This document shows, one piece after another, positions 1,056 through 59,893 of a stretch of 64,000 bases of DNA. The notes below the pieces were generated by a model. It saw only the letters and a list, made by a program, of their open reading frames with translations, did not search any database and was not told where the DNA came from. The stretch lies in contig CM035355.1 in NCBI GenBank assembly GCA_020137815.1, forward strand, positions 8,184,001 to 8,248,000. The letters run 5' to 3'. Made by a program: the position numbers and the translations under genes. The DNA comes from Hormiphora californensis. Lineage: Eukaryota; Animalia; Ctenophora. Within the stretch, counting starts at the first letter, position 1, and every line of letters starts with the position of its first letter.

Positions 1056-1690
1056 CATATTCATCTAGTTAAAATAATATATCGGTTACCATGGTAACAT
1101 ATTCATCTAGTTAAAATAATATATCGGTTACCATGGTAACATATTCATCTAGTTAAAATAATATATCGGTTACCATGGTAACATATTCATCTAGTTAAAA
1201 TAATATATCGGTTACCATGGTAACATATTCATCTAGTTAAAATAATATATCGGTTACCATGGTAACATATTCATCTAGTTAAAATAATATATATCGGTTA
1301 CCATGGTTACATATTCATCTAGTTAAAATAATATATCGGTTACCATGGTAACATATTCATCTAGTTAAAATAATATATCGGTTACCATGGTAACATATTC
1401 ATCTAGTTAAAATAATATATCAGTTACCATGGTAACATATTCATCTAGTTAAAATAATATATCGGTTACCATGGTAACATATTCATCTAGTTAAAATAAT
1501 ATATCGGTTACCATGGTAACATATTCATCTAGTTAAAATAATATATCAGTTACCATGGTAACATATTCATCTAGTTAAAATAATATATCGGTTACCATGG
1601 TAACATATTCATCTAGTTAAAATAATATATCGGTTACCATGGCTTCATAACATATTCATCTAGTTAAAATAATATATCGGTTACCATGGT
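1056..1690 (-). repeat. 42-bp tandem array (15 copies) spanning the acceptor upstream of the ATXN3 start exon
   Basis: Minus-strand unit TTACCATGGTAACCGATATATTATTTTAACTAG|ATGAATATG; the copy at 1056 runs into unique exon sequence. Confidence 0.9.
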
Positions 1691-3234
1691 TACCATGGTT
1701 ACCATGGTAACCATGGCAATATATATGGCAATATATATGGTCGGGACGGCGCTGGCAGGTTGGGACCTACTGCCATTCCAAACCATCTAGTTTTAGTTTT
1801 CTAAACACCGGGGAACTTCTGTTGTTTCTTAGTTGTTTTAGTACAGACGTAAGTGTTAATCGCTGATTATAGTCAAACTTTTTTATTTCCCCGCCCGGGT
1901 GAATGCCGAAGGCATTCACCCGGATGCCTTTTGCAAAAAGGCATAGGGGTTTAGAATTCGACAAGATTACATACTAGTGAAGTGTCACGCTTTTTTTGTC
2001 CCGTGACGTAACCCATCCATAGCAACCATCCAGTGCGGAGTGCTCAAAATATCATTTGAAATACTTCACATACGCTCTAATCCAAATTGTCCACGAAGGC
2101 GACGCCCGCAAAGTTATTACAGTGCTGAAATGACGCACTTTCATTAGAACGCGCAGCCCGGCGCCGCGCGCCCCTTCCTGTTTGCAATTCATAACGTTCA
2201 TCGTTCGTCATGTGTTCGTCATTACAATTGCGCTCTGGTATTGTCATTGATTGCATGAGGTTAGTTGAGTGGAGATCACATAGACTAGAATTAAAAGGAG
2301 CCTAATTAGGCAGCTCATATCACCTGCACTGTTCTGTCTCACCTTTCAGAATCTCATTAGGTCATGGACGATGGGATGTAATTAGGAGTGTCACATGCCA
2401 ATGGCGGGGAAATACAGTACTATGGATACATAGTGCAAATATTCTTGTTTTGAAAATTATAGTGTGAGCCGGAATGGCGTCGAGTGCCGCAGTCGCGTTG
2501 AGTATTAGTTCGGACACGGTGGGTACCAGGGTGGGGTAACATGGTAAACGCACACAAAAGACCTTACCCGTCTTCGTGTTATTAGCCATGATGCGCCACC
2601 CTGTATACCCACCCAGATTTGTCCAGTGTGGCTGGTTTTCTTGACATTATATGATTTATTGCGGCGCATGCCACTGTCAGCGGCAGTTTTGATTGATTGA
2701 TTGAGTTTAGATGGCCATGAGGTGTGTTATTACTATTACTATGTTGTTATGCATCACTCACTAGTGAATAAATATGTAGTAGAAAAATGGTGCCAACGCA
2801 CTCTCTAAACTATCACTTTCTCAAGTGTACCCGTTTCCTGGGACATTGGCATACAGGGGTGCGCGTATGAGGGGGCTGCAGCGCATTCCAACCTGGGACA
2901 GTGACCTGCAATCTGCATTCGAGCCAAAGCTCAAATGAGGGGCCTCGGAAACGTTCAGGGTCATGCACATTCGGGTCACGCCAATCACAGCTCAGAACTT
3001 GGCAAACGCTGCTGGCCCCGCGGGATAAGGCAGCGCTTTTCAAGGGAAACAGAACTGAAAAGTTTGGCATGATTAATCACGAAATAGGGATCCCTAAAAA
3101 AGTTCAGTATTTACACAGCAAACGTGTTCCTTTTTTCCTTTTAAGTATTTACACAGCGTTTACACAGTCTTTACACAGTCGTTACACCCAGAGCGCCCGC
3201 GCCGCTCTGGGTGTAAAGACTGCGTCTTTCGCAC

Positions 3235-3456
3235 TAGTGGAAGCTCTTACGGTATTTCCCACGCCCCGTGGGAAAGTTTTTGACCGTGGGAAAGTTTTCA
3301 AACCGTGGGAAAAGAAAGATACATACAATAACATACAAAAAATAATTATTTTTTTAAAGTTATTGTATGTATCTCTCTTTTCCCACGGTTTGAAAACTTT
3401 CCCACGGTCAAAAACTTTCCCACGGGGCGTGGGAAATACCGTAAGAGCTTCCACTA
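3235..3456. mobile_element. Foldback MITE (222 bp), 3-bp TSD CAC
   Basis: Near-perfect palindrome TAGTGGAAGCTC...GAGCTTCCACTA flanked by CAC on both sides. The empty site (TTTCGCACTCGATT) is visible in the inverted partner at about 5590-5605. Confidence 0.88.
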
Positions 3457-3589
3457 CACTCGATTTGCAGCGTTTTCGGAAACTTTTTTCGCCGCAGCGC
3501 TCAATTTACCCAAGAAATATCTTCTTAAAAAAAATTTTGGCGGATATATATATAATAGGGATCCCTAAAAAAGTTCAGTATTTATATTT

Positions 3590-3973
3590 ATGGAGGCATC
3601 CTACCTCGATGTGCGGGTGTTTCACCCTAATGCTCCCTCCTACCAGAAAACATCAATCGCACAGCTACACAGAACTCACCAGAACCAGAAGAAAATGGCC
3701 TATTTGAGGAGGGTTCTAAACGTAGAGCAGGGTAGCTTCACTCCTCTTGTGTTTGCTACTTCAGGAGGCTTCGCACCAGAGGTTAAACGAGTTCTGGAAT
3801 GCGTTGGACACAAAATCTGCTCCAAGCACCAAGAAGGACTCAGTGAGACGATGTCTTTTATAAGACAAAAGCTCAGATTTAGCCTGTTGAGATCAACCTT
3901 AGTAGCATTGAGGGGCACTAAGAGGCGTGTGGTACCATTTATGCCGAGCGAAGTTGATTTCAGAGTGACGTAA
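3590..3973 (+). mobile_element. 3' fragment of a CRE-like non-LTR retrotransposon (restriction-like endonuclease domain)
   Basis: YLDVRVFHPNAPSY...KKMAYLRRVLNVEQGSFTPLVFATSGG...LRFSLLRS..ALRG is the typical C-terminal RLE signature of metazoan CRE-type elements; 5' truncated. Confidence 0.75.
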
Positions 3974-4491
3974 TTTATTCTGTGTTTACTTTTATAAATC
4001 GCTAGGGACGTGCGTGGTGTTTAAGTTTAAGTTTAAGTTTACGCACAATTTATCACAAAGTCACACAATTAATATATAACTTCGTCCCGCTCTTACACCA
4101 TACACTAATAAAGTGATACAAGGCTGAGAGGTGAAAATATACAGTTCACATCAGCGGTTTCCTAAAGCGGTTTAAACAATACTTAGAGACAGTGATACAC
4201 ATCCTAGTAGCATTAGATGCACAAAATACGAGGAACAAGGGGTTATAGAAAACAAGGTAACGAACTAACAAAACAAGCAGACAAACATAAAAACAGATTA
4301 AACAGAATACATAAAGTCACAGACGCAAAACACAACATCAGCAGTCAATACAAAACGGTTAATACAAAAACATACTAACACACGTACAAACACATTCACA
4401 GACAAACAGACAATCACAAACACATACACACAGATTCGGTAATAAATAAATAATAAATTAGCTGTCCTTCAAACACACACTCACTGAAGAG

Positions 4492-9679: not shown

Positions 9680-12600
9680 ATTTCAAAGCCTCATCTTTTT
9701 GGGATTGGTCATCGTTTACTGACTACCTACATTGTTTGGTTACCATGGTCACCGTGGTAGCAGGTCTGACATACACATTCCTGGAGTGGCCCTCCTACAT
9801 TGAAGCAATTGGAACACTGTCTCTATGTATTGAGGCGACTCTAGCTCTACCCCAACTTGTGAAGAACTATCAGACTCAGTCTACAGAGGGAATGAGGTAA
9901 TATGGGCCGGGTATTATAAACCACAGCGGGTAAATAGACGTCCGCCCGCTATAAAATAGTAACATACATGTTCTAGATATGTCTTAGGACTTAGATTAGG
10001 TACTATACGTGTAGAACGGGGTAATTTGGTCTCACATGTACAATATATAACAATATATATAACAGGACTTAGATTAGGTACTATACGTGTAGAACGGGGT
10101 AATTTGGTCTCAGTCTCAGATAAGAAGCGGGAGCTAGTGATAACGGTTGATTTCATTACCATGGGCCTTAGATCACTGGCTACAGAACTACTATCATGTG
10201 ATTTCAGAGTCACGTGATAACAGTGCCACTGCAGCTGCTGCAGCCTGAGCCTTCTCTTAGGGGAAACTCTAACTGAATGGCATCCCATTAATGGGATGCC
10301 ATCAACAGTAAAACTCTAACTGATAATGGACCACAGTGATGGTTCTTTCTCTGTATTCTCTCTGTAGGGTGTGTCTCACCAAATTGACACCTCGAGTTTG
10401 GAAATTTTGTACAGGTCCGTAGACCACCTAAACATTGGCCAATTTTGTTAATTTTGGTACCAAACTGTCAGAAAATGTCTGAACTACTGAATTACTAAAT
10501 ATCATGATAATTATGCATCACTGAGCTGAATTATGATGCAAAATATGCCAAAAAAAGCCTTTTTTGGCGTTGACGTAACGACCGTAACGACCGTAACGCA
10601 TTTTTGAACGATCATAGAATCGGTTGTAGTTATCGTACGAAGTTGAAACTGGTACTCAGCGGTAGCTGTGACTGAGTACTTTCTCCTGTCTGAATTCTAA
10701 AGCCTTAGTCCAAAAAGTATGACCGTGGCTGCCTGAACATTCTGGAGATGTAACATTTGTAACGACCGTAACAGCAACCGAAACGTAACGGTCGTTACAA
10801 ATGTAACGACCGAAACGTTACGGTCGTTACATTTGTAACGACCGTAACGTTACGGTCGTTACAAAATACGGTCATTTTAGGTAACGACCGTAACATAACG
10901 GTGGTAAAACGTTACGGTCATTACAAATGTAACGACTGCCTACATAGGCAGTACATCTATGTACTTCCTACAGAGAGAATACAGAGAAAGAACTATAGGA
11001 CATGCCCGGGCGTGGGCGCGCACACAGAGAGAATACAGAGAAAGAACCATAACTGTGGTCCATTATCAGTTAGAGTTTTACTGTTGATGGGATCCCATTA
11101 ATGGGATGCCATTCAGTTAGAGTTTCCCCTTACTGCAGCGGGGGGTCTTCCTCCTATCACTAGTTTTTAGCTAGTAGGTGTGAGGAGTGATGCGCGTTAA
11201 AGTATGCGCGTTTTGACCTGGTATAAACATAAAGCTTATATTCACTTCCCTTTTGAAGCTTTGTCACCAGGGCCCACGACACGGAATTTTTCCGAGGTTA
11301 AACTTTATTCAGGCACGGGGTGCCACCCTGCCCCCCCCCCCCCGGTGTCGTGGGCCCTGGTCACAACTTGAGACAATTGATGTGCAGGCAATGCCGTTCA
11401 CCAATGTACAGTGTTACCATGGTGATGTTACAGTTTCCCTTGTTTCAGTGTTACCATGGTGATGTTACAGTTTCCCTTGTTTCAGTGTTACCATGGTGAT
11501 GTTACAGTTTCCCTTGTTTCAGTGTTACCATGGTGATGTTACAGTTTCCCTTGTTTCAGTGTTACCATGCTGATGTTACAGTTTCCCTTGTTTCAGTGTT
11601 ACCATGGTGATGTTACAGTTTCCCTTGTTTCAGTGTTACCATGGTGATGTTACAGTTTCCCTTGTTTCAGTGTTACCATGGTGATGTTACAGTTTCCCTT
11701 GTTTCAGTGTTACCATGGTGATGTTACAGTTTCCCTTGTTTCAGTGTTACCATGGTGATGTTACAGTTTCCCTTGTTTCAGTGTTACCATGGTGATGTTA
11801 CAGTTTCCCTTGTTTCAGGGTTACCATGGTGATGTTACAGTTTCCCTTGTTTCAGTGTTACCATGGTGATGTTACAGTTTCCCTTGTTTCAGTGTTACCA
11901 TGGTGATGTTACAGTTTCCCTTGTTTCAGTATTACCATGGTGATGTTACATTTTCCCTTGTTTCAGTGTTACCATGGTGATGTTACAGTTTCCCTTGTTT
12001 CAGTGTTACCATGGTGATGTTACAGTTTCCCTTGTTTCAGTGTTACCATGGTGATGTTACAGTTTCCCTTGTTTCAGTGTTACCATGGTGATGTTACAGT
12101 TTCCCTTGTTTCAGTGTTACCATGGTGATGTTACAGTTTTCCTTGTTTCAGTGTTACCATGGTGATGTTACAGTTTCCCTTGTTTCAGTGTTACCATGGT
12201 GATGTTACAGTTTCCCTTGTTTCAGTGTTACCATGCTGATGTTACAGTTTCCCTTGTTTCAGTGTTACCATGGTGATGTTACAGTTTCCCTTGTTTCAGT
12301 GTTACCATGGTGATGTTACAGTTTCCCTTGTTTCAGTGTTACCATGGTGATGTTACAGTTTCCCTTGTTTCAGTGTTACCATGGTGATGTTACAGTTTCC
12401 CTTGTTTCAGTATTACCATGGTGATGTTACATTTTCCCTTGTTTCAGTGTTACCATGGTGATGTTACAGTTTCCCTTGTTTCAGTGTTACCATGGTGATG
12501 TTACAGTTTCCCTTGTTTCAGTGTTACCATGGTGATGTTACAGTTTCCCTTGTTTCAGTGTTACCATGGTGATGTTACAGTTTCCCTTGTTTCAGTGTTA

Positions 12601-12764
12601 CCATGGTGATGTTATGGTTTCTGGGAGACTCTGGGAAAACTCTCTACTTCCTGCTACGACAGTCACCATTCCAGTTTCTTCTTTGCGGGTCGATCCAGAT
12701 CATCATTGATATCATGATACTTTTCCAAGTTGTGAGATACGGGGACCCACACCGGGTGGATTAG
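9680..12764 (+). CDS. PQLC1: PQ-loop repeat-containing protein 1 / SLC66A2-like, last two exons: 9680-9896 and 12596-12764
   Basis: FKASSFWDWSSFTDYLHCLV...EAIGTLSLCIEATLALPQLVKNYQTQSTEGMS|VTMVMLWFLGDSGKTLYFLLRQSPFQFLLCGSIQIIIDIMILFQVVRYGDPHRVD* matches the PQLC1 second PQ loop (FWQWSSF.DY...PQLYRN...STEGMS..MVLMW..GD.FKT.YF). Canonical ag/gt boundaries with compatible phases. Upstream exons not identified. Confidence 0.92.
10260..11129. mobile_element. PIF/Harbinger-type MITE (TIR GGGGAAACTCTAACTGAATGGCATCCC..., TSD TTA) with internal GTAACGACC repeats, in the PQLC1 intron
   Basis: TTA|GGGGAAACTC...GAGTTTCCCC|TTA; about 100-bp inverted ends. Confidence 0.82.
11268..11359. mobile_element. Short MITE, TIR CAGGGCCCACGACAC, flanked by GTCAC direct repeats
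   Basis: GTCAC|CAGGGCCCACGACAC...GTGTCGTGGGCCCTG|GTCAC. Confidence 0.65.
11412..12614 (+). repeat. 37-bp tandem array (32 full units) containing the PQLC1 terminal-exon splice acceptor
   Basis: Unit TGTTACCATGGTGATGTTACAGTTTCCCTTGTTTCAG; the last copy (AG at 12594-12595) opens the real exon. Confidence 0.95.
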
Positions 12765-15700
12765 TTGTGAGATACGGGGACCCACACCGGGTGGATTAGT
12801 TGTGAGATACGGGGACCCACACCGGGTGGATTAGTTGTGAGATACGGGGACCCACACCGGCTGGATTAGTTGTGAGATACGGGGACCCACACCGGCTGGA
12901 TTAGTTGTGAGATACGGGGATCCACACCGGGTGGATTAGTTGTGAGATACGGGGACCCACACCGGGTGGATTAGTTGTGAGATACGGGGACCCACACCGG
13001 CTGGATTAGTTGTGAGATACGGGGACCCACACCGGGTGGATTAGTTGTGAGATACGGGGACCCACACCGGGTGGATTAGTTGTGAGATACGGGGACCCAC
13101 ACCGGGTGGATTAGTTGTGAGATACGGGGACCCACACCGGGTGGATTAGTTGTGAGATACGGGGACCCACACCGGCTGGATTAGTTGTGAGATACGGGGA
13201 CCCACACCGGGTGGATTAGTTGTGAGATACGGGGACCCACACCGGGTGGATTAGTTGTGAGATACGGGGACCCACACCGGGTGGATTAGTTGTGAGATAC
13301 GGGGACCCACACCGGCTGGATTAGTTGTGAGATACGGGGACCCACACCGGGTGGATTAGTTGTGAGATACGGGGACCCACACCGGGTGGATTAGTTGTGA
13401 GATACGGGGACCCACACCGGGTGGATTAGTTGTGAGATACGGGGACCCACACCGGGTGGATTAGTTGTGAGATACGGGGACCCACACCGGGTGGATTAGT
13501 TGTGAGATACGGGGACCCACACCGGGTGGATTAGTTGTGAGATACGGGGACCCACACCGGGTGGATTAGTTGTGAGATACGGGGACCCACACCGGGTGGA
13601 TTAGTTGTGAGATACGGGGACCCACACCGGCTGGATTAGTTGTGAGATACGGGGACCCACACCGGCTGGATTAGTTGTGAGATACGGGGACCCACACCGG
13701 CTGGATTAGTTGTGAGATACGGGGACCCACACCGGGTGGATTAGTTGTGAGATACGGGGACCCACACCGGGTGGATTAGTTGTGAGATACGGGGACCCAC
13801 ACCGGGTGGATTAGTTGTGAGATACGGGGACCCACACCGGGTGGATTAGTTGTGAGATACGGGGACCCACACCGGGTGGATTAGTTGTGAGATACGGGGA
13901 CCCACACCGGGTGGATTAGTTGTGAGATACGGGGACCCACACCGGGTGGATTAGTTGTGAGATACGGGGACCCACACCGGGTGGATTAGTTGTGAGATAC
14001 GGGGACCCACACCGGGTGGATTAGTTGTGAGATACGGGGACCCACACCGGGTGGATTAGTTGTGAGATACGGGGACCCACACCGGGTGGATTAGTTGTGA
14101 GATACGGGGACCCACACCGGGTGGATTAGTTGTGAGATACGGGGACCCACACCGGGTGGATTAGTTGTGAGATACGGGGACCCACACCGGGTGGATTAGT
14201 TGTGAGATACGGGGACCCACACCGGGTGGATTAGTTGTGAGATACGGGGACCCACACCGGGTGGATTAGTTGTGAGATACGGGGACCCACACCGGGTGGA
14301 TTAGTTGTGAGATACGGGGACCCACACCGGGTGGATTAGTTGTGAGATACGGGGACCCACACCGGGTGGATTAGTTGTGAGATACGGGGACCCACACCGG
14401 GTGGATTAGTTGTGAGATACGGGGACCCACACCGGGTGGATTAGTTGTGAGATACGGGGACCCACACCGGGTGGATTAGTTGTGAGATACGGGGACCCAC
14501 ACCGGGTGGATTAGTTGTGAGATACGGGGACCCACACCGGGTGGATTAGTTGTGAGATACGGGGACCCACACCGGGTGGATTAGTTGTGAGATACGGGGA
14601 CCCACACCGGGTGGATTAGTTGTGAGATACGGGGACCCACACCGGGTGGATTAGTTGTGAGATACGGGGACCCACACCGGGTGGATTAGTTGTGAGATAC
14701 GGGGACCCACACCGGGTGGATTAGTTGTGAGATACGGGGACCCACACCGGGTGGATTAGTTGTGAGATACGGGGACCCACACCGGGTGGATTAGTTGTGA
14801 GATACGGGGACCCACACCGGGTGGATTAGTTGTGAGATACGGGGACCCACACCGGGTGGATTAGTTGTGAGATACGGGGACCCACACCGGGTGGATTAGT
14901 TGTGAGATACGGGGACCCACACCGGGTGGATTAGTTGTGAGATACGGGGACCCACACCGGGTGGATTAGTTGTGAGATACGGGGACCCACACCGGGTGGA
15001 TTAGTTGTGAGATACGGGGACCCACACCGGGTGGATTAGTTGTGAGATACGGGGACCCACACCGGGTGGATTAGTTGTGAGATACGGGGACCCACACCGG
15101 GTGGATTAGTTGTGAGATACGGGGACCCACACCGGGTGGATTAGTTGTGAGATACGGGGACCCACACCGGGTGGATTAGTTGTGAGATACGGGGACCCAC
15201 ACCGGGTGGATTAGTTGTGAGATACGGGGACCCACACCGGGTGGATTAGTTGTGAGATACGGGGACCCACACCGGGTGGATTAGTTGTGAGATACGGGGA
15301 CCCACACCGGGTGGATTAGTTGTGAGATACGGGGACCCACACCGGGTGGATTAGTTGTGAGATACGGGGACCCACACCGGGTGGATTAGTTGTGAGATAC
15401 GGGGACCCACACCGGGTGGATTAGTTGTGAGATACGGGGACCCACACCGGGTGGATTAGTTGTGAGATACGGGGACCCACACCGGGTGGATTAGTTGTGA
15501 GATACGGGGACCCACACCGGGTGGATTAGTTGTGAGATACGGGGACCCACACCGGGTGGATTAGTTGTGAGATACGGGGACCCACACCGGGTGGATTAGT
15601 TGTGAGATACGGGGACCCACACCGGGTGGATTAGTTGTGAGATACGGGGACCCACACCGGGTGGATTAGTTGTGAGATACGGGGACCCACACCGGGTGGA

Positions 15701-18700
15701 TTAGTTGTGAGATACGGGGACCCACACCGGGTGGATTAGTTGTGAGATACGGGGACCCACACCGGGTGGATTAGTTGTGAGATACGGGGACCCACACCGG
15801 GTGGATTAGTTGTGAGATACGGGGACCCACACCGGGTGGATTAGTTGTGAGATACGGGGACCCACACCGGGTGGATTAGTTGTGAGATACGGGGACCCAC
15901 ACCGGGTGGATTAGTTGTGAGATACGGGGACCCACACCGGGTGGATTAGTTGTGAGATACGGGGACCCACACCGGGTGGATTAGTTGTGAGATACGGGGA
16001 CCCACACCGGGTGGATTAGTTGTGAGATACGGGGACCCACACCGGGTGGATTAGTTGTGAGATACGGGGACCCACACCGGGTGGATTAGTTGTGAGATAC
16101 GGGGACCCACACCGGGTGGATTAGTTGTGAGATACGGGGACCCACACCGGGTGGATTAGTTGTGAGATACGGGGACCCACACCGGGTGGATTAGTTGTGA
16201 GATACGGGGACCCACACCGGGTGGATTAGTTGTGAGATACGGGGACCCACACCGGGTGGATTAGTTGTGAGATACGGGGACCCACACCGGGTGGATTAGT
16301 TGTGAGATACGGGGACCCACACCGGGTGGATTAGTTGTGAGATACGGGGACCCACACCGGGTGGATTAGTTGTGAGATACGGGGACCCACACCGGGTGGA
16401 TTAGTTGTGAGATACGGGGACCCACACCGGGTGGATTAGTTGTGAGATACGGGGACCCACACCGGGTGGATTAGTTGTGAGATACGGGGACCCACACCGG
16501 GTGGATTAGTTGTGAGATACGGGGACCCACACCGGGTGGATTAGTTGTGAGATACGGGGACCCACACCGGGTGGATTAGTTGTGAGATACGGGGACCCAC
16601 ACCGGGTGGATTAGTTGTGAGATACGGGGACCCACACCGGGTGGATTAGTTGTGAGATACGGGGACCCACACCGGGTGGATTAGTTGTGAGATACGGGGA
16701 CCCACACCGGGTGGATTAGTTGTGAGATACGGGGACCCACACCGGGTGGATTAGTTGTGAGATACGGGGACCCACACCGGGTGGATTAGTTGTGAGATAC
16801 GGGGACCCACACCGGGTGGATTAGTTGTGAGATACGGGGACCCACACCGGGTGGATTAGTTGTGAGATACGGGGACCCACACCGGGTGGATTAGTTGTGA
16901 GATACGGGGACCCACACCGGGTGGATTAGTTGTGAGATACGGGGACCCACACCGGGTGGATTAGTTGTGAGATACGGGGACCCACACCGGGTGGATTAGT
17001 TGTGAGATACGGGGACCCACACCGGGTGGATTAGTTGTGAGATACGGGGACCCACACCGGGTGGATTAGTTGTGAGATACGGGGACCCACACCGGGTGGA
17101 TTAGTTGTGAGATACGGGGACCCACACCGGGTGGATTAGTTGTGAGATACGGGGACCCACACCGGGTGGATTAGTTGTGAGATACGGGGACCCACACCGG
17201 GTGGATTAGTTGTGAGATACGGGGACCCACACCGGGTGGATTAGTTGTGAGATACGGGGACCCACACCGGGTGGATTAGTTGTGAGATACGGGGACCCAC
17301 ACCGGGTGGATTAGTTGTGAGATACGGGGACCCACACCGGGTGGATTAGTTGTGAGATACGGGGACCCACACCGGGTGGATTAGTTGTGAGATACGGGGA
17401 CCCACACCGGGTGGATTAGTTGTGAGATACGGGGACCCACACCGGGTGGATTAGTTGTGAGATACGGGGACCCACACCGGGTGGATTAGTTGTGAGATAC
17501 GGGGACCCACACCGGGTGGATTAGTTGTGAGATACGGGGACCCACACCGGGTGGATTAGTTGTGAGATACGGGGACCCACACCGGGTGGATTAGTTGTGA
17601 GATACGGGGACCCACACCGGGTGGATTAGTTGTGAGATACGGGGACCCACACCGGGTGGATTAGTTGTGAGATACGGGGACCCACACCGGGTGGATTAGT
17701 TGTGAGATACGGGGACCCACACCGGGTGGATTAGTTGTGAGATACGGGGACCCACACCGGGTGGATTAGTTGTGAGATACGGGGACCCACACCGGGTGGA
17801 TTAGTTGTGAGATACGGGGACCCACACCGGGTGGATTAGTTGTGAGATACGGGGACCCACACCGGGTGGATTAGTTGTGAGATACGGGGACCCACACCGG
17901 GTGGATTAGTTGTGAGATACGGGGACCCACACCGGGTGGATTAGTTGTGAGATACGGGGACCCACACCGGGTGGATTAGTTGTGAGATACGGGGACCCAC
18001 ACCGGGTGGATTAGTTGTGAGATACGGGGACCCACACCGGGTGGATTAGTTGTGAGATACGGGGACCCACACCGGGTGGATTAGTTGTGAGATACGGGGA
18101 CCCACACCGGGTGGATTAGTTGTGAGATACGGGGACCCACACCGGGTGGATTAGTTGTGAGATACGGGGACCCACACCGGGTGGATTAGTTGTGAGATAC
18201 GGGGACCCACACCGGGTGGATTAGTTGTGAGATACGGGGACCCACACCGGGTGGATTAGTTGTGAGATACGGGGACCCACACCGGGTGGATTAGTTGTGA
18301 GATACGGGGACCCACACCGGGTGGATTAGTTGTGAGATACGGGGACCCACACCGGGTGGATTAGTTTGTGAGATACGGGGACCCACACCGGGTGGATTAG
18401 TTGTGAGATACGGGGACCCACACCGGGTGGATTAGTTGTGAGATACGGGGACCCACACCGGGTGGATTAGTTGTGAGATACGGGGACCCACACCGGGTGG
18501 ATTAGTTGTGAGATACGGGGACCCACACCGGGTGGATTAGTTGTGAGATACGGGGACCCACACCGGGTGGATTAGTTGTGAGATACGGGGACCCACACCG
18601 GGTGGATTAGTTGTGAGATACGGGGACCCACACCGGGTGGATTAGTTGTGAGATACGGGGACCCACACCGGGTGGATTAGTTGTGAGATACGGGGACCCA

Positions 18701-21550
18701 CACCGGGTGGATTAGTTGTGAGATACGGGGACCCACACCGGGTGGATTAGTTGTGAGATACGGGGACCCACACCGGGTGGATTAGTTGTGAGATACGGGG
18801 ACCCACACCGGGTGGATTAGTTGTGAGATACGGGGACCCACACCGGGTGGATTAGTTGTGAGATACGGGGACCCACACCGGGTGGATTAGTTGTGAGATA
18901 CGGGGACCCACACCGGGTGGATTAGTTGTGAGATACGGGGACCCACACCGGGTGGATTAGTTGTGAGATACGGGGACCCACACCGGGTGGATTAGTTGTG
19001 AGATACGGGGACCCACACCGGGTGGATTAGTTGTGAGATACGGGGACCCACACCGGGTGGATTAGTTGTGAGATACGGGGACCCACACCGGGTGGATTAG
19101 TTGTGAGATACGGGGACCCACACCGGGTGGATTAGTTGTGAGATACGGGGACCCACACCGGGTGGATTAGTTGTGAGATACGGGGACCCACACCGGGTGG
19201 ATTAGTTGTGAGATACGGGGACCCACACCGGGTGGATTAGTTGTGAGATACGGGGACCCACACCGGGTGGATTAGTTGTGAGATACGGGGACCCACACCG
19301 GGTGGATTAGTTGTGAGATACGGGGACCCACACCGGGTGGATTAGTTGTGAGATACGGGGACCCACACCGGGTGGATTAGTTGTGAGATACGGGGACCCA
19401 CACCGGGTGGATTAGTTGTGAGATACGGGGACCCACACCGGGTGGATTAGTTGTGAGATACGGGGACCCACACCGGGTGGATTAGTTGTGAGATACGGGG
19501 ACCCACACCGGGTGGATTAGTTGTGAGATACGGGGACCCACACCGGGTGGATTAGTTGTGAGATACGGGGACCCACACCGGGTGGATTAGTTGTGAGATA
19601 CGGGGACCCACACCGGGTGGATTAGTTGTGAGATACGGGGACCCACACCGGGTGGATTAGTTGTGAGATACGGGGACCCACACCGGGTGGATTAGTTGTG
19701 AGATACGGGGACCCACACCGGGTGGATTAGTTGTGAGATACGGGGACCCACACCGGGTGGATTAGTTGTGAGATACGGGGACCCACACCGGGTGGATTAG
19801 TTGTGAGATACGGGGACCCACACCGGGTGGATTAGTTGTGAGATACGGGGACCCACACCGGGTGGATTAGTTGTGAGATACGGGGACCCACACCGGGTGG
19901 ATTAGTTGTGAGATACGGGGACCCACACCGGGTGGATTAGTTGTGAGATACGGGGACCCACACCGGGTGGATTAGTTGTGAGATACGGGGACCCACACCG
20001 GGTGGATTAGTTGTGAGATACGGGGACCCACACCGGGTGGATTAGTTGTGAGATACGGGGACCCACACCGGGTGGATTAGTTGTGAGATACGGGGACCCA
20101 CACCGGCTGGATTAGTTGTGAGATACGGGGACCCACACCGGGTGGATTAGTTGTGAGATACGGGGACCCACACCGGGTGGATTAGTTGTGAGATACGGGG
20201 ACCCACACCGGGTGGATTAGTTGTGAGATACGGGGACCCACACCGGGTGGATTAGTTGTGAGATACGGGGACCCACACCGGGTGGATTAGTTGTGAGATA
20301 CGGGGACCCACACCGGGTGGATTAGTTGTGAGATACGGGGACCCACACCGGGTGGATTAGTTGTGAGATACGGGGACCCACACCGGGTGGATTAGTTGTG
20401 AGATACGGGGACCCACACCGGGTGGATTAGTTGTGAGATACGGGGACCCACACCGGGTGGATTAGTTGTGAGATACGGGGACCCACACCGGGTGGATTAG
20501 TTGTGAGATACGGGGACCCACACCGGGTGGATTAGTTGTGAGATACGGGGACCCACACCGGGTGGATTAGTTGTGAGATACGGGGACCCACACCGGGTGG
20601 ATTAGTTGTGAGATACGGGGATCCACACCGGGTGGATTAGTTGTGAGATACGGGGACCCACACCGGGTGGATTAGTTGTGAGATACGGGGATCCACACCG
20701 GGTGGATTAGTTGTGAGATACGGGGACCCACACCGAGTGGATTAGTTGTGAGATACGGGGACCCACACCGGGTGGATTAGTTGTGAGATACGGGGACCCA
20801 CACCGGGTGGATTAGTTGTGAGATACGGGGACCCACACCGGGTGGATTAGTTGTGAGATACGGGGACCCACACCGGGTGGATTAGTTGTGAGATACGGGG
20901 ATCCACACCGGGTGGATTAGTTGTGAGATACGGGGACCCACACCGGCTGGATTAGTTGTGAGATACGGGGACCCACACCGGGTGGATTAGTTGTGAGATA
21001 TGGGGACCCACACCGGGTGGATTAGTTGTGAGATACGGGGACCCACACCGGGTGGATTAGTTGTGAGATATGGGGATCCACACCGGGTGGATTAGTTGTG
21101 AGATACGGGGACCCACACCGGGTGGATTAGTTGTGAGATACGGGGACCCACACCGGGTGGATTAGTTGTGAGATACGGGGATCCACACCGGGTGGATTAG
21201 TTGTGAGATACGGGGACCCACACCGGGTGGATTAGTTGTGAGATACGGGGACCCACACCGAGTGGATTAGTTGTGAGATACGGGGACCCACACCGGGTGG
21301 ATTAGTTGTGAGATACGGGGACCCACACCGGGTGGATTAGTTGTGAGATACGGGGACCCACACCGGGTGGATTAGTTGTGAGATACGGGGACCCACACCG
21401 GGTGGATTAGTTGTGAGATACGGGGACCCACACCGGGTGGATTAGTTGTGAGATACGGGGATCCACACCGGGTGGATTAGTTGTGAGATACGGGGACCCA
21501 CACCGGGTGGATTAGTTGTGAGATACGGGGACCCACACCGAGTGGATTAG
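12730..21550 (+). repeat. 35-bp minisatellite, 252 copies (8.8 kb); unit = end of the PQLC1 CDS including the TAG stop
   Basis: Unit TTGTGAGATACGGGGACCCACACCGGGTGGATTAG; 8821 bp = 252x35 plus one inserted T near 18366. The first unit encodes (V)VRYGDPHRVD*. Confidence 0.95.
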
Positions 21551-21834
21551 TGAACTGGTGGACTGTTGGATTAATAGTGTTGTTATGTTCTAATAACCCT
21601 CCTTTACATTTGTTAAGAGGGTCGAGCTAGGCAAGATTAGTAGACTGTAATTTGGAGCCTTCATCTTATGGCCGGTAAAGAGTGTGAGACATTATTATTA
21701 TTATTATTTTGTCAAGCTAAAAGCTTGTTATTGGCTAAATGATATTATCGGTCCTCGCGGTAGTAGGGTGGTTACCATGGTAACCGTGTAGGGTGTATAA
21801 TACCAAGGCTACCGAATGTAAGCTGCAGGAATTG

Positions 21835-21932: not shown

Positions 21933-22679
21933 TGGTACGCTGATGAAGTGAATGTTTGCATGTTAAAACTAAGCAGTTTGAATATTTTCTTTATTTGACA
22001 AATGTTATATTTATAGACGATAATTTAATTTTTCCTGGTGAGGTAACTTTATTTATTGTTTACTACACACTTTTTAAATCCCATCAGCTCTCCAACACTT
22101 CTGATACACTCAATATATTATTATATACATAATATTATTATCTTTGGTTGAGTAATTGAGATATTGGTTAAATTATGTAAGGGTTACAACCATTACAACC
22201 AATAAAAATTGTACTGGAGGATAGCTGACACACGCACAAAGACTAGCAACAAAATACACTGTATATTAGTAACATTGTTACACACCCAAATGTCTCCAAA
22301 TGTCACTAAAATGCTCTTCAACCAGATTACACATCATTCACCCTACTGCACTCTATTCCTGGTCCCTGATTGGCTGATAACCAGTCACGTGACCTAAATA
22401 ACGAGTTCTGATTGGTCGGTTCCGGACACGGAGAGATTACGCTGCGAAGACCTTGTTGATCGTATCAAACTGCTTCCGGTAGGAGCTCCGTGGCACAAAC
22501 TTCTCTGATCCGAGGAGTACACTTGTTTTGGGGCGGAGATTGGGTTCCTTAGTGGCCGGTGGGCTAGCAAAATGCTGCGAAGTGGTGGTACCTTCGGCGT
22601 AGCTACACTTATCAAATAATCCTGTGGGTTTGGATTAGTTACGATTGGTGAGGATTGTTAAGGGCTGGGGAGGGGAGGG

Positions 22680-23150
22680 TAAATAATTGGTGAGGATTCG
22701 GTAAATAATTGGTTAGGATTGGTGAGTTTTGGGTAAATAATTGGTTAGGATTGGTGAGGGTTGGGTAAATATTTGGTTAGGATTGGGTAAATATTTGGTT
22801 ATGATTGGTGAGGGTTGGTTAAATAATTGGTTAGGATTGGGTAAATATTTGGTTAGGATTGGGTAAATAATTGGGTAAATAATTGGTTAGGATTGGTGAG
22901 GGTTGGGTAAATAATTGGTGAGGGTTGGGTAAATAATTGGTGAGGGTTGGGTAAATAATTGGTGAGGGTTGGTGAGGGTTGGTTAAATAATTGGTTAGGA
23001 TTGGGTAAATAATTGGTTAGGATTGGGTAAATAATTGGTGAGGCGTGGCTAAATAATTGGTTAGATAATTGGGTAAATAATTCGTTAGGATTGGGTAAAT
23101 ATTTGGTTAGGATTGGTGAGGGTTGGGTAAATAAATGGTTAGGATTGGTG
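22680..23150. repeat. Degenerate GGTTGGGTAAATAATTGGTTAGGATT minisatellite
   Basis: Variable-length tandem units. Confidence 0.8.
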
Positions 23151-23180
23151 TAGTTAGGCAGTACTAATGATGGTAGGGCC

Positions 23181-24133
23181 AAATCTTGGACAAAATTTGT
23201 AACAAGCTAATTTCTTCACCAACTGGCTCAGATGGGTGTCTAGTAATGCCAAAAAAAATCAATGATGATCGGGAGCGCGCAGTGCGCACGCTCCGTAGCG
23301 CGCGAAAATGCTTCACGTGCATTTCTAGCTTAGAACAAAAAATGAAAACCAACTTAGGAAAGGAGTAGAGACAAATCTGAGGGCACTAAAATGTGTAGCG
23401 TCCTCGCATTAGTGGGGGTAGGTGCCGGAATTAAGTCTCTATCTCATCTGGTTAATTAGATAATTGGATAATTAGGTTTGCGCATAACCGTTTTTTGGCT
23501 ATACGGCTATAGCCACTTAGGAATGGTTTAGAGACTTTTCACTGGTGCCATTTTGTTCAGAACAAAATTTTAATCTAAGAGTTGTGGAAAAATTTAGGGC
23601 CTATCTCTTACCGTTTAGGCGTAATTTGCGCTGAAGGGATGCCAAATTAGTCGAAAATGCGAAAAAATGAGTTAATTGGCTTCCTTTCACCGCAAATTAC
23701 GCCTAAACGGTAAGAGATAGGCCCTAAATTTTTCCACAACTCTTAGATTAAAATTTTGTTCTGAACAAAATGGCACCAGTGAAAAGTCTCTAAACCATTC
23801 CTAAGTGGCTATAGCCGTATAGCCAAAAAACGGTTATGCGCAAACCTAATTATCCAATTATCTAATTAACCAGATGAGATAGAGACTTAATTCCGGCACC
23901 TACCCCCACTAATGCGAGGACGCTACACATTTTAGTGCCCTCAGATTTGTCTCTACTCCTTTCCTAAGTTGGTTTTCATTTTTTGTTCTAAGCTAGAAAT
24001 GCACGTGAAGCATTTTCGCGCGCCACGGAGCGTGCGCGCTCCCGATCATCATTGATTTTTTTTGGCATTACTAGACACCCATCTGAGCCAGTTGGTGAAG
24101 AAATTAGCTTGTTACAAATTTTGTCCAAGATTT
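23181..24133. mobile_element. About 950-bp foldback (palindromic) element
   Basis: 23181-23633 is a near-perfect reverse complement of 23690-24133, with a short central spacer. Confidence 0.85.
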
Positions 24134-24316
24134 TCACCAATACTCCCTAATTAGTGAGGGATAGGATTGGTTAGATAATGTTGTGAAATTGGTTGGGATT
24201 GGTTTAATTATCATGTAAACCATGGTATAAAAATTGAAACACTTTTGTGGCAAACATTATATGTTTCATGATGTCAATTAAATGACACCAATTATGGTAT
24301 AATATATAATCAAGTA

Positions 24317-24530
24317 CTAACCGGTGTCTGCAATCCTATTAATTGTAGGACGCCCGTAGTTAAACTTGGAATAATCCCCACTGGTTGAGTTGAATGATTG
24401 GTCTCCAGAGGGTCCCTCCATCTCAGACTTGGGTCGGTATGGTTCACTTCTCCCGGTGGGTTCCCCCGTGTATTGGTAGGAATAGCTGGTTATACCCTGT
24501 TGGGAGGGATAGAGGGATAGAGAGATAGAA

Positions 24531-24607
<77 letters not shown>

Positions 24608-25366
24608 GATAGAGAGGTGACCCATACTTCTAGTTTTCTGGTTGAGTTTTTCATCTGAGTTCTCGGTCGAGTGGGTATGTTAACAGCTTTGGTTGTTTTC
24701 ACAAGTTTCACCCCATCAACAGGAGGCTTCACACCCCCTGATGGGTGGTAGTTCTTCCCGGAGTAGGGTCGGTATGCATCCATCAACGTAGTCGCACCCT
24801 CAACCCTGAGAAATAGTTGTTACCATGGTGATATGTTACAGTCGCACCCTCAACCCTGAGAAATAGTTGTTACCATGGTGATATGTTACAGTCGCACCCT
24901 CAACCCTGAGAAATAGTTGTTACCATGGTGATATGTTACAGTCGCACCCTCAACCCTGAGAAATAGTTGTTACCATGGTGATATGTTACAGTCGCACCCT
25001 CAACCCTGAGAAATAGTATTGCAGAAAATGGAAAATAAAAATGTTTGTTTCTCACACGGCGCGGCGTAGACTTGTAAGTTATTGTTATTACTTAACAAGT
25101 CTATCTGCCTAGCTCCGTCTCGGTCTAAAAGATGGTAGAGACCGTTTCAGACGTGCCGTCTAAACGGGCTTCAGGCACTGTACTAATACTCACTTATCGG
25201 TAGAGAATGTAAGGCAATCTTTGGGGCCAGCTTTTATTATTTTCATCCTCCCGTGACCCACAAAATCAGATCCCACGGTGGAAGACAACTCCCTTTGTCC
25301 CTCAAACAAGTTCAGAGAGTCAGGGAAGGCATATGCGGTGGGACGGTAGTCGGCTAATTTGTTCAT
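24317..25366 (-). CDS. SAXO/FAM154-like axonemal microtubule-stabilising protein, 3 exons: 25366-25194, 24805-24628, 24496-24317 (176 aa)
   Basis: All junctions are GT-AG and in phase. MNKLADYRP...LFEGQRELSSTVGSDF...K|VEGATTLMDAYRPY...KLE|GITSYSYQY...RPTINRIADTG* shows repeated EG.T/S...DY/F motifs like SAXO Mn repeats. The family call is by motif resemblance only. Confidence 0.7.
24791..25016 (-). repeat. 50-bp tandem array (4.5 copies) spanning the exon 2 acceptor of the SAXO-like gene
   Basis: Minus-strand unit TGTAACATATCACCATGGTAACAACTATTTCTCAG|GGTTGAGGGTGCGAC; five identical acceptors spaced 50 bp apart. Confidence 0.92.
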
Positions 25367-25970
25367 AGCTTGTTATATATCGCCTGTGTGTGATTCTGTT
25401 AATCAAAATACCATCACTGGGCAAGTTCAGACCAGGGTAGTAAGATCATCAGAGAGTTTCAATCATGAGACTGATATCGCCATGACAACGCATTGTACAA
25501 AACAGCAGCTTATACAGAATGAATTGCGTACACATATCACACACACACACACACTCTCTCTTTCTCTTTCTCACAATTTATATGAAGCTGAAGGAACTAT
25601 ATATAAAAGTATAGTGAGTTTACTTTAATCAATTAGCAGAAAACTGGAATTTAATCAATCACATTAGTGAGTATTCGTGATAGCATATGTGGACTAAGCG
25701 AACTAAACAAGCTGACAAGCAAAGCATGGTGGTAGGAACCAATCAGAACTCGTTATTTAGGTCACGTGACTGGTTATCAGCCAATCAGGGACCAGTATTC
25801 CATCAGTGATTACTAAGCGAACTGAACGAGCTGGCAAGCAAAGCACGATATGGTAGCAAGGCATGGTGGTTATATAATATATATACTATATATATACTAT
25901 GAGGAACGATAAGGTAGCAAGCAAAAGGAACAATCATTATATGCATTTCTCACTCTCTCTCTGTCTCTCT

Positions 25971-32395: not shown

Positions 32396-33001
32396 GTGCA
32401 CAAGGAATCCAGCAACCTAGGGGGTGGAAGGGGGGGGGGGTTAGCTGATGGAGTCATTGAGAATTGTGATCATCTAATTATTAGATTCTAATAGATGCCA
32501 TCGATAACATTAACTAGCTTGAAAGACAAGCCTATGATGTATGTACTGCGTGTTTTGCTCTTGACATTATCTCGCTAGGCCATGTTCAGACAGTATAATA
32601 ACTATGCGAAGTATTTATTTAAAAGTATAACAACAGGGCGCCTCCATGACCTTTTTAATGTCGCTCACTAGCTTCTCAGTACATTTTTCTAAGCGGTATA
32701 TCAAACATTTCTTTGTTTTGTGTGTTTGTGCTCTCCTTTCTTTGTGATTTGTAGTTAGAAACATCATTAATGACCGGCCCATGTCAGAGTCATGGCTGTC
32801 AGCATTGGTCTAATAGTGGCCTCGTGTAGTGTTCTCCCTTAGAATTCACTATAGTAACATTATAGTAAAAACATCACTCACCTGATCTCTCTTAACCACT
32901 CTACTCATTTGCCTAGTGCAGTTCTAAATGGTTCGCCCCAATGGCACAGTCTAGGTAATAGTATCACAACCTTTACTAAATTACTAATTAGTACAACTCA
33001 C

Positions 33002-41873: not shown

Positions 41874-42200
41874 CTCCATACCCATATGCTATCATATATC
41901 CCCCTCAGGAGAGGATGGAGCTGAGACGACAGTGCCTAGGAATGGGTCAGCTACCCTCCAAGCACAATGGCAATCTCTCAACCTGCAAGTGGGGTGGTAA
42001 ATAGAACTCTATCTCTTATTAATTACCACTAGACCTCCGGGACAATCTTTGGAAATAGCTCGTCCGTTCCAGCATTGCCAATATTTAGAACAATCCTCAG
42101 AATTCCTGTATAGTCCCGTGTCTTTGGGACAGGTGAAGGCCAGGGCCAGGGCTGGCAATACAGCCAACAGGGTCAAATACTGCATGATGTCTAGAGATAT
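36761..42200 (+). CDS. Multi-exon gene or pseudogene with matrin/U1-type C2H2 zinc fingers; exon structure blurred by sequence errors and duplications
   Basis: Exon-like pieces KCTLCSVVFPNTVSRDAHQDGARHLKAV (39510-39630 and 40468-40585) and ...AHINSKKHLKRL (40000-40107). Several ag/gt-bounded exons from 36761; many frameshifts. Confidence 0.4.
38860..40790 (+). repeat. About 960-bp tandem duplication (38860-39825 / 39826-40790) of zinc-finger exons
   Basis: Both copies start CCGAGACACTTGCTGACGACTCCTGTGGC and differ mainly by small indels. Confidence 0.8.
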
Positions 42201-45275: not shown

Positions 45276-45286
45276 TGTTCCAACTC

Positions 45287-52154: not shown

Positions 52155-52188
<34 letters not shown>

Positions 52189-57090: not shown

Positions 57091-57750
57091 AATTATGCGA
57101 ATATTTAAATTGTCCGAGTTATATCGTGTCCGGTTGTAATTCAGCCACCATCCTTTGCTATAAATATATCATTTCGCACACATGGAATAGTATTATAGCT
57201 GGGTCAGAACTTGAAAATAGTTCATATTGCAGCTCATATTTCATTGCAGCTCATATAATAATGTTGATCAGCACCTGGCGGATAGTCAGTTGAAGCCACG
57301 TAGCAGCGTATACTGTGCGATGATAAATATTCCATATTTCCATTACTGCTCTAGTTTCGGAAACTATCTATCACTCTTCCAGGTGGAAATGTGTATGACG
57401 GACTCTCTACACATCTCTCTTTCTCTCTCTCTTTCTCCCTCCCTCCCTCTCTCTCTCGCCATCCCTCTTCTCTCTATCTTTCTCTGATCTCGCAAATCTA
57501 CATATCGATTATCGCCCTTGAAGTTGGTTCCGCAATGTTATAATATTCCGAAGAGCGTGAAACCACAAAGCGGCCTGCGATTTGTTGATTCAGCTCGATT
57601 CAATGTAGAATTGTAGGAACATACCCCCTAATGTGGCACTAGTGTCTTAATATTTCTCAGAGGAGGTCCAACACTTTCATTCGCTCTCAGTGCTTGGAAA
57701 CTTTATGAAAAGTTCTTTAATCTACATGGAGGGTTCGCACCATTGGCATA

Positions 57751-59221
57751 CACGGTGCCCCTGAAGGAAGTTCCACCTCGACCGAGTCCCCCAGCAAAAC
57801 GAACGGTTGTGTGACCTAAAGGGGACCTCTGGGAACTACGGAGGACCGTGGGGGAAAAGATTTAAAAGTAGCCTAAAAAATTACAACGATAGAAAGATAG
57901 CTATCGTTTTTTTCACTTTGAAAATACGACGTTTCTTTAACAAAATCCTTGATCAGGAAGATGCAAGTGTCTCCCACCTATTTTGTGACGTAGAATCGAA
58001 TGCCGTTGAAGTCAAATCTCTAAAATGTTAGTAAAATGGTGAAAATCGCGTTTTTAGGTGTTTTTTGGTGAAAAAAGCGTTCAAACTGGTACTAGATGAT
58101 GAGATAGAGTCCCAAAAGTATGACAAATCGCTTTTTTGGGACCTTTTCGCCCTAGAAGCAGATTTTTATGAAAATCTGGTTCAGCGCCTATTCTCTGTAT
58201 ACTTTCAAAGAAGGTGAATATTGCTCTTATTTAGCCAATTTTGAAGAAAAGTCATCCAAAACAGTACTAGATGATGAGATAGTGGCCCAAAAATATAACT
58301 AATCGATTTTTTGGGTCTTTTCCGTCCTAGAAACAAATTTGCATGGCGGTCGGATGATACGTTTCCTCTCGGTAGGCCTCGATGAAGTAGGTGGAAATAG
58401 CCAAAATATAGCGATTGCGGCAAATGAATGTGGATAAACGTTGACCAAACCCACTTTAGCATCATGTATGACCTATCTCTGGGCTACTGGACTATGCAAG
58501 AGCCATACATGATGATGAAGTGGGTTTGGTAAACGTTTATCCACATTCATTTGCCGTAATCGCTATATTTTGGCTATTTCCACCTACTTCAGAGGCCTAC
58601 CGAGAGGAAACGCATCATCCGACCGCCGTGCAAATTTGTTCCTAGGACGGAAAAGACCCAAAAAATCGATTAGTTATATTTTTGGGCCACTATCTCATCA
58701 TCTAGTATTGTTTTGGATGACTTTTCTTCAAAATTGGCTAAATTAGAGCAATATTCACCTTCTTTGAAAGTATACAGAGAATAGGTGCTGAACCAGATTT
58801 TCATAAAAATCTGCTTCTAGGGCGAAAAGGTCCCAGAAAAGCGATTTGTCATACTTTTGGGACTCTATCTCATCATCTAGTACCAGTTTGAACGCTTTTT
58901 TCACCAAAAAACACCTAAAAACGCGATTTTCACCATTTTACTAACATTTTAGAGATTTGACTTCAACGGCATTCGATTCTACGTCACAAAATAGGTGGGA
59001 GACACTTGCATCTTCCTGATCAAGGATTTTGTTAAAGAAACGTCGTATTTTCAAAGTGAAAAAAACGATAGCTATCTTTCTATCGTTTTAATTTTTTAGG
59101 CTACTTTTAAATCTTTTCCCCCACGGTCCTCCGTAGTTCCCAGAGGTCCCCTTTAGGTCACACAACCGTTCGTTTTGCTGGGGGACTCGGTCGAGGTGGA
59201 ACTTCCTTCAGGGGCACCGTG
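57751..59221. mobile_element. 1471-bp foldback non-autonomous transposon, Chapaev-like (CAC...GTG termini, 4-bp TSD CATA)
   Basis: CATA|CACGGTGCCCCTGAAGG...CCTTCAGGGGCACCGTG|CATA; arms of about 710 bp, near-perfect. Confidence 0.82.
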
Positions 59222-59690
59222 CATATCTCGCACATCTCGGTCTACATCTAGCATGCCGGAACGTTCCATCACATCTGTAGCGCCCAATCTATATTATTAT
59301 AGAAGACCCTCTATTGCATGCTGGAATTTTGTAGATGCCGCGGATTCTAAATCTAGGATAATTTGTTGATGCATTTCCTGATCCGTAGTTTATGCTAATT
59401 TATTATTATCTATTACTATTTTTACCATACTATTAATATGTTATCTGCCCATCTTCACCGAACGACTAATTTCCTCAGAAACTTGCTAGACCTCTAGCAT
59501 CCCAACTATATTATAGCCTAAATTTGACTCTCACTATAATTCCCTTCTTATTAATTATTGCAGCTTGAGTTTGTGTGGTGGGAAGGTACCCCATACTGCA
59601 CAGCAGGGTACACCTGATCTGAGAAAGTTCCCCATCTCGCAACATCTGATCTGATATCTGATATATCATCATGTTCTGGTATTATTATAG

Positions 59691-59893
59691 GCTGCTGAGA
59701 GGTGCTGCAGATCGGGAGCGAGGAGGAAAAGGAGGAAAACACACTTTACGAGATATGATCAACTCTCCTGGAAGCGGCACTTATAAAAGTAGCAGTTCGG
59801 TGATCAATTTACCAGGTACTTACAAAAGTAGCAGTTCAGTAATTAATTTACCAGGTACTTATAAAAGTAGCAGTTCAGTGATCAATTTACCAG
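59691..59893 (+). other. Putative exon of an unidentified gene with a triplicated 39-bp donor segment
   Basis: Acceptor tattattatag at 59690; CCAG|GT donors after 59815, 59854 and 59893; open frame ...GTYKSSSSVINLP x3. Confidence 0.45.

What the first reader, a model, noticed from the sequence alone, without database searches (positions are those of the whole stretch)
1056..59893. Tandem arrays are built from exon boundaries in several unrelated genes (splice-site and stop-codon amplification)
Seen: array units are exact copies of a gene boundary. These are the ATXN3 acceptor x15 (1056-1690), PQLC1 acceptor x32 (11412-12614), PQLC1 stop x252 (12730-21550), SAXO-like acceptor x5 (24791-25016), NhaC donor x10 (29998-30310), NhaC acceptor x3 (31261-31480), chitinase donor x2 (33780-33880) and the donor of a putative exon x3 (59779-59893). 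In PQLC1, SAXO-like and NhaC, using any copy other than the exon-proximal one gives a frameshift or premature stop. Inference: this genome has a mutational process that repeatedly duplicates exon/intron junctions, and a spliceosome that ignores dozens of identical decoy sites (strict exon definition or NMD clean-up). Alternatively the arrays may tune expression. I do not know of this being described as a genome-wide system.
Basis: partly seen in the sequence, partly recalled or inferred. Interest (0 to 1): 0.85.

Follow-up and report, generated by a model that had tools for sequence, protein, structure and literature searches.

The report
Comb-jelly "mirage" repeats at exon edges
In this comb-jelly genome at least seven short DNA repeats are stacked copies of the edge of a real gene piece (splice site, leader-attachment site or stop codon), a repeat type already known as "mirages" in lancelets and from human genes; they likely arise as repair slips near exon edges and likely survive because the cell keeps using the innermost copy.

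Summary
All arrays are present, and 6 of the 8 listed are tandem arrays on supported exon edges. The NhaC acceptor x3 is dispersed and imperfect, and the 59.7-kb exon is unverified. There an mRNA contig is joined to a ctenophore spliced leader at the innermost AG. The same mRNA uses the innermost chitinase donor. Both chitinase repeats occur in a second sample's DNA; the 67-bp array appears absent in a related organism. Edge-crossing is enriched: 7 of 16 against about 1 expected over the window, 7 of 9 against 2.5 in gene space, and 7 of 19 against 3.4 with short units included (post hoc, one window). The pattern is a described kind: amphioxus "mirages" and the human F7 VNTR, where ordinary splicing ignores the decoys. 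This scan has noted it in at least 9 other genomes. No special spliceosome is needed. Modestly new: the ctenophore lineage, a trans-splice-acceptor version, a stop-codon array of 252 units (length unverified), and a shared palindromic motif.

The parts
274..432 (-). ATXN3 (Josephin) exon 2, GC donor
   Evidence: Pfam PF02099 1.2e-7; splice ends
976..1064 (-). ATXN3 first coding exon (ATG at 1047); acceptor at 1064, probably trans-spliced (inferred)
   Evidence: Pfam Josephin 3e-4
1056..1690 (-). 42-bp x15 acceptor mirage, 9 exon nt per unit, holds the palindromic motif
9680..9896 (+). PQLC1-like (PQ-loop) penultimate exon
   Evidence: Pfam PF04193 6e-8
11409..12614 (+). 37-bp x32.8 acceptor mirage in the last intron, 19 exon nt per unit, motif inside the coding part
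12596..12764 (+). PQLC1-like last coding exon with stop
   Evidence: Pfam PQ-loop 1e-3; open joined frame
12728..21551 (+). 35-bp x252 array of the last 11 codons plus stop; 3-nt overlap at its ends; copy number not verified in reads
22437..25383 (-). Four-exon gene of an unnamed ctenophore protein of about 240 aa ('SAXO-like' not confirmed): exons 25383-25194, 24805-24628, 24496-24322, 22621-22437
   Evidence: homologues P0002, L001, L002
24790..25017 (-). 50-bp x4.6 acceptor mirage: 28-nt junction block plus 22-nt motif-bearing filler
28243..32121 (-). NhaC-type Na+/H+ antiporter gene, eight exons in one open frame; 5' part missing at a misjoin
   Evidence: Pfam PF03553
29998..30310 (-). 32-bp x9.8 donor mirage (real donor after 30290), 21 exon nt per unit; the GT lies within the motif
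31261..31490 (-). Dispersed imperfect copies of the NhaC acceptor (sites 31294 real, 31414, 31477)
   Evidence: no RNA or homologue check of this junction
32401..33999 (-). GH19 chitinase exons 33999-33852, 33169-33002 and the start of one at 32416 (cut by a misjoin)
   Evidence: Pfam PF00182; spliced RNA contig 25 of X9
33752..33880 (-). 66-bp x2 donor duplication, in frame; the RNA uses the inner donor (33852)
   Evidence: joint 33169-33852; X5 records 15 and 16
42027..42190 (-). Chitinase first exon (signal-peptide-like start); spliced leader joined at 42190
   Evidence: loose end; leader sequence in PMC8527503
42154..42999 (-).
59691..59896 (+). Putative exon with 39-bp x3 in-frame repeat over a possible donor; exon unverified
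   Evidence: no hit
60205..60247 (+). Genomic copy of the ctenophore spliced leader (43 of 44 nt), not followed by a GT; fixes the lineage

Best explanation
These are 'mirage' minisatellites: tandem arrays whose 32-67-bp unit is a copy of a real exon edge, likely born as small local duplications during break repair or slippage near exon edges, likely kept only when the innermost copy leaves the exon intact, and likely lengthened by unequal exchange. Shown: the unit anatomy; decoy use would break the frame in 47 of 48 cases; two repeats are in independent reads; one mRNA uses the innermost donor and the innermost trans-splice acceptor. Inferred, step by step: (1) Birth. 8 of 11 arrays read as a duplicated block plus a 1-22-nt filler and 3 of 11 as a 1-5-nt overlap, as expected of end-joining duplications. 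(2) Site bias. Introns are short once arrays and inverted-repeat elements are removed (25-606 nt, 7 of 14 under 200 nt). Arrays of all unit sizes hug exon edges, and an abundant 14-nt palindrome lies in 5 of 7 crossing units, so units of 32 nt or more often reach across. (3) Filter. Wholly exonic duplications are purged. An edge-crossing one is harmless because ordinary site choice takes the copy with the whole exon behind it, and a stop-spanning one rebuilds the stop in its first copy. (4) The arrays are mostly neutral passengers.
For: Unit anatomy and counts. Frame test. RNA joint at the inner donor and leader joined at the inner AG. Array present in S1 and S2, with organism B running from the acceptor into flank-like sequence, which fits recent birth from single-copy DNA. 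Recurrent variant units and diverged end units. Junction structure. Collapsed intron sizes and enrichment. Edge clustering of non-crossing arrays, 10 of 12 within 30 nt against 27%. Precedents: PMC3087553 passages, PMC3902484 passage, PMC1557585 abstract and discussion; small duplications from breaks, PMC8355091 passages.
Against: Short introns plus purging explain only a third to a half of the crossings (7 observed against 2.5-3.4 expected, p 0.003-0.03), so an extra edge bias is needed and its cause is not shown. The RNA evidence is one contig from a mixed environmental library, about 6% divergent from the window. Its source animals are not shown to carry the arrays, and contigs drop rare forms. 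'Block plus filler' could equally be trimming of the outermost copy. No read test exists for the ATXN3, PQLC1, NhaC or four-exon-gene arrays. An 8.8-kb array before the first AATAAA (22201) is hard to call free of cost.
Confidence: 0.7

Rival explanations
1. A junction-directed process: breaks or template switches are actively aimed at exon edges, through the palindromic motif (a protein-binding site or hairpin) or a splicing- or transcription-coupled lesion, and motif-bearing filler is pasted in from other arrays.
For: Residual enrichment. Motif clusters 15 against 3 expected; 9 of 15 within 60 nt of an edge against 18%. Motif in 5 of 7 crossing and 1 of 9 other arrays (Fisher p 0.035). Units of two unrelated genes share 23 of 25 aligned nt. 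Summed contig depth over the motif stretch is about 200 times the flank in X1, so the motif family is abundant genome-wide.
Against: Motif and array set were chosen after seeing the data, in a window picked for this pattern. 2 of 7 crossing arrays lack the motif, and 8 of 16 complex arrays cross no known edge. The same pattern occurs in lancelets and humans with no such motif reported in the passages read.
Confidence: 0.2
2. The arrays are functional dials: copy number tunes expression through decoy splicing, upstream ATGs after leader addition, or 3' UTR length.
For: Decoy use at the two 5' arrays would add upstream out-of-frame or short ORFs. The chitinase decoy donor gives an open +22-aa linker. 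The stop array would add 8.8 kb of 3' UTR.
Against: The 67-bp array seems absent in organism B. The one mRNA shows no decoy use. The genes are unrelated. Folding shows no consistent accessibility difference between real and decoy sites.
Confidence: 0.05
3. The arrays, or their lengths, are assembly artefacts.
For: The window has two misjoins, a 2-base error and about 5 kb of junk. About 183 central units of the x252 array hold only one variant.
Against: 2 of 2 repeats tested appear in read contigs of a second sample. Variant units recur at separate positions in the arrays. For the exact length of the x252 array alone I put inflation or over-polishing at about 0.3.
Confidence: 0.05

Closest known systems
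Amphioxus 'mirages' (Adh3, globins BflGb6 and BflGb9, troponin C, PGBD5); PMC3087553 passages, PMC3902484 passage
   Same: [quoted passage not shown] Units carry AG/GT signals, regular splicing is reported as undisturbed, and end units escape homogenisation.
   Different: A ctenophore. Includes a spliced-leader trans-splice acceptor with the ATG (shown for chitinase, inferred for ATXN3) and a stop-codon array. Up to 32 splice-site copies and 252 stop copies against 3-6 in BflGb6. A shared palindromic motif is not mentioned in the passages read.
Human F7 intron 7 37-bp VNTR; PMC1557585 abstract and discussion
   Same: The first unit spans the exon-intron junction, 5-9 identical donors follow, and only the exon-proximal one is used, by the constitutive machinery.
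   Different: One donor-side locus, with decoys shown by mutation to be functional but outcompeted. Here acceptors, donors and a stop are involved, and no such experiment exists.
Small tandem duplications from break repair (NHEJ/TMEJ); PMC8355091 passages
   Same: Duplications under 100 bp next to their source, with microhomology or additional changes at the junction.
   Different: Those are single duplications in mammalian cells. The pathway in ctenophores is untested, and expansion to arrays is a later step.

Membership tests
mirage minisatellite | Tandem repeat whose unit spans an exon-intron boundary | tested here: met
   6 splice-site arrays on supported exons; the stop array is an extension of the definition
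mirage minisatellite | Extra copies keep AG/GT splice signals | tested here: met
   31, 4, 9, 14 and 1 extra sites with intact signals in five arrays
mirage minisatellite | Normal splicing is not disturbed (authentic site used) | tested here: inconclusive
   2 of 2 junctions seen use the inner site, but in one contig of a mixed library whose animals are not shown to carry the arrays
mirage minisatellite | Length variation between haplotypes or individuals | tested here: inconclusive
   Presence in S1 and S2 and apparent absence in organism B; contigs give no copy number
mirage minisatellite | Homogenised interior with diverged end units | tested here: met
   variants cluster at the ends of the x252 and ATXN3 arrays (polishing could add to this); the PQLC1 acceptor array has scattered variants
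mirage minisatellite | Somatic instability (reported for Adh3) | not testable with these tools
   needs single-molecule typing of tissues
F7-type junction VNTR | Decoy sites become active when the inner site is mutated | not testable with these tools
   needs minigene tests
   0 Pfam families for the four exons and for full-length P0002

The most novel reading that the evidence does not exclude
Ctenophore genomes carry an abundant 14-nt palindrome that sits preferentially at exon edges and acts as a break or template-switch hotspot. It drives genome-wide amplification of splice, trans-splice and stop junctions, with motif-bearing filler copied between genes. This would be a sequence-directed engine for mirages and a natural test bed for how spliced-leader trans-splicing picks one of a dozen acceptors with no upstream donor.
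Probability: 0.2. Interest if true: 0.65.

Novelty: new member of a known kind. Interest (0 to 1): 0.3.

Why it matters
The class is known, but its origin is called unclear in PMC3087553. This window offers a dense set (7 supported arrays in 5 genes), with a present/absent contrast between related organisms and readable birth junctions. A genome-wide test could separate mutational bias from survival. The trans-splice version asks how a leader is added at the innermost of about 12 acceptors, which F7-type donor scanning does not cover. Practically, such arrays will mislead gene prediction and assembly in ctenophores.

Tried and rejected
No whole genome is held, so no genome-wide test was possible. 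The homologue search with a PQLC1 exon found nothing at E<=0.001, nor did the metagenome scan with its last exon (0 of 450 candidates). The Atlas could not read the putative exon; Pfam and PDB gave it no hit. Metagenome loci L001 and L002 are spliced transcripts, so they give no intron comparison. RNA structure masking of decoys was rejected: no consistent difference in unpaired probability. NMD as the general filter was rejected on gene geometry. Reading the x252 unit as a donor array was considered and set aside because the frame runs on to tandem stops and aligns weakly, E 0.79, to the end of a PQ-loop/SWEET-fold chain; this remains untested by RNA. Uncovered stretches in X7 prove nothing alone; absence in organism B rests on one contig (depth 11) with a flank-like loose end. 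Left out of the 16-array count: the 233-bp whole-exon repeat, low-complexity and composite arrays, the junk region, and the dispersed NhaC acceptor copies. Paper searches finding no ctenophore report or genome-wide test: 12 of 13 listed, titles and abstract starts only; 0 papers; motif strings, unrelated papers; 2 papers. The library lacks most subscription journals, and the original Adh3 mirage paper was not read. No supplements were opened.
Full report
What the window is. It is animal DNA from a ctenophore. It holds 43 of the 44 bases of the spliced leader printed for Hormiphora californensis in PMC8527503 (passages; window 60205-60247). Homologues of one of its genes are leader-capped transcripts. 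I did not determine the species. No whole genome is held, so all statistics rest on this window. The assembly is imperfect: reads leave the window's sequence at about 32400 and 42022, a chitinase exon is two bases short of the reads, and 49.7-54.9 kb looks like homopolymer junk.

The observation. TRF finds all the tandem arrays named. Exon-by-exon Pfam gives Josephin, PQ-loop, Na+/H+ antiporter and GH19 (some single exons score under the curated cut-off), and the exon models join in open frames. The 'SAXO-like' gene matches no family, but three full-length relatives read straight across the junction under the x5 array. Junction copies number 15, 32, 251, 5, 10 and 2. Using a decoy breaks the protein in 47 of 48 cases; the exception is the chitinase donor, in frame and 22 residues longer (in that script one downstream exon end of the four-exon gene was off by one base, which does not affect stops at residues 80-81). 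The NhaC acceptor x3 is three scattered imperfect copies, and the exon at 59.7 kb is unsupported.

Reads. I laid 4 of the 13 listed runs on two stretches. One RNA contig of 1147 nt from a mixed aquatic library is the chitinase mRNA. It joins 33852 to 33169, the inner donor. Its 5' end leaves the genome at the innermost AG of the 67-bp array, and 19 of its 24 loose letters plus the shared AG match the leader's 3' end. DNA contigs of sample S2 cover both copies of the 66-bp repeat, and S1 and S2 both cross unit junctions of the 67-bp array. In organism B one contig runs from the acceptor into flank-like sequence with no second unit. Limits: a single contig, about 6% divergent (10 of 166; X1's second haplotype differs at 8 of 137). 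It shares more alleles with S2 than with B at the sites listed, but its animals are not shown to carry the arrays, and contigs hide rare isoforms and copy number.

Is it more than chance? With arrays collapsed (40,366 nt, 65 exon edges, nested-gene exons set by eye), 7 of 16 complex arrays cross a supported edge against 1.0-1.2 expected (p 2e-5 to 5e-5). Within gene space with exonic placements purged it is 7 of 10 against 2.0 (p 9e-4). With inverted-repeat elements removed it is 7 of 9 against 2.5 (p 0.003). Adding the ten short-unit arrays, none of which crosses, gives 7 of 19 against 3.4 (p 0.03). Of the 12 arrays that do not cross, 10 end within 30 nt of an edge, where 27% of non-exonic gene-space bases lie; this comparison is rough because arrays have two ends. 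So repeats of all kinds crowd exon edges and the longer units reach across. Cut-offs were set after seeing the data, in a window chosen for this pattern, so the p values are optimistic.

How it most likely works. Birth (inferred): 8 of 11 arrays show the same block at both outer ends with 1-22 nt between copies, and 3 of 11 show a 1-5-nt overlap. This fits duplication during break repair, as for small duplications in mammalian cells (PMC8355091, passages), though trimming of the outer copy fits too. Bias (partly shown): stripped introns are 25-606 nt. A palindromic motif forms 15 clusters against 3 expected, 9 of them within 60 nt of an edge, and lies in 5 of 7 crossing units against 1 of 9 others. 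Two units from different genes share 23 of 25 aligned bases. The motif's likeness to an RFX X-box is recalled, not tested. Filter (inferred): only duplications that leave a complete exon behind the innermost site, or rebuild the stop in the first copy, are tolerated. Growth (inferred): unequal exchange, with recurrent variants and diverged ends. Site choice needs nothing special: in human F7 five to nine identical donors compete and only the first is used by the constitutive machinery (PMC1557585, abstract and discussion). NMD cannot be the general answer because PQLC1's decoys are in the last intron (from the standard EJC rule). RNA folding does not single out the real sites.

What is known. 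[quoted passage not shown] PMC3902484 (passage) adds PGBD5 and troponin C. I reached the term through this scan's earlier notes (22 findings in at least 9 genomes) and checked it in those papers.

Verdict. The arrays are real and well observed, and the pattern is a new member of a known kind. The additions are the lineage, a leader-acceptor mirage, a very long stop-codon array whose length and presence in mRNA are open (first AATAAA at 22201), and a motif-linked edge bias worth a genome-wide test. Interest 0.3.

Noticed in passing
window 32396-32401 and 42011-42023: Reads of X1 and X9, and of X1 and X5, continue with other sequence than the window: two likely misjoins (or a large insertion allele at the second). 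The chitinase loses its 3' half and the NhaC gene its 5' part.
   Followed up: partly
window 12728-22206: If the first AATAAA (22201) is used, the PQLC1 3' UTR would be about 9.4 kb, nearly all array; unexplained.
   Followed up: partly
window 41415-41997: 233-bp x2.5 repeat holding a whole exon-like segment with both splice signals, three times, on the + strand; real exon duplication or assembly redundancy.
   Followed up: no
window 37200-40800: Exon-like pieces of a + strand gene with a zinc-finger-like segment, about 970 bp of it present twice with indels.
   Followed up: partly
window 55533-56190 and 56247-57091: 32-bp x20 and 105-bp x8 arrays with acceptor-like AG contexts but no recognised exon; they share a short word.
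   Followed up: partly
window 28805-29037 and 24497-24627: Introns that shrink to about 25 and 41 nt when their simple repeats are collapsed; the repeat is the pyrimidine tract.
   Followed up: partly
window 9740-9757 and 12598-12614: The palindromic motif occurs twice inside PQLC1 coding sequence.
   Followed up: partly
window 60205-60247: Genomic spliced-leader copy without a following GT, perhaps a reverse-transcribed copy.
   Followed up: partly
window 7583-9040: 485-codon open frame with no convincing Pfam family, between transposon debris and PQLC1.
   Followed up: no
window 23181-24133, 57748-59224, 10259-11130, 3084-7019: Long near-perfect inverted-repeat (foldback or MITE-like) elements, some nested.
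   Followed up: no
window 25918-27243 and 43452-46507: Two non-LTR retroelement frames (RVT_1; the second with endonuclease and an upstream frame).
   Followed up: no
window 28243-32121: An intron-containing NhaC-type antiporter, a family I recall as mainly prokaryotic; origin not examined.
   Followed up: no
window 49700-54900: Homopolymer-run sequence that looks like a base-calling artefact.
   Followed up: no
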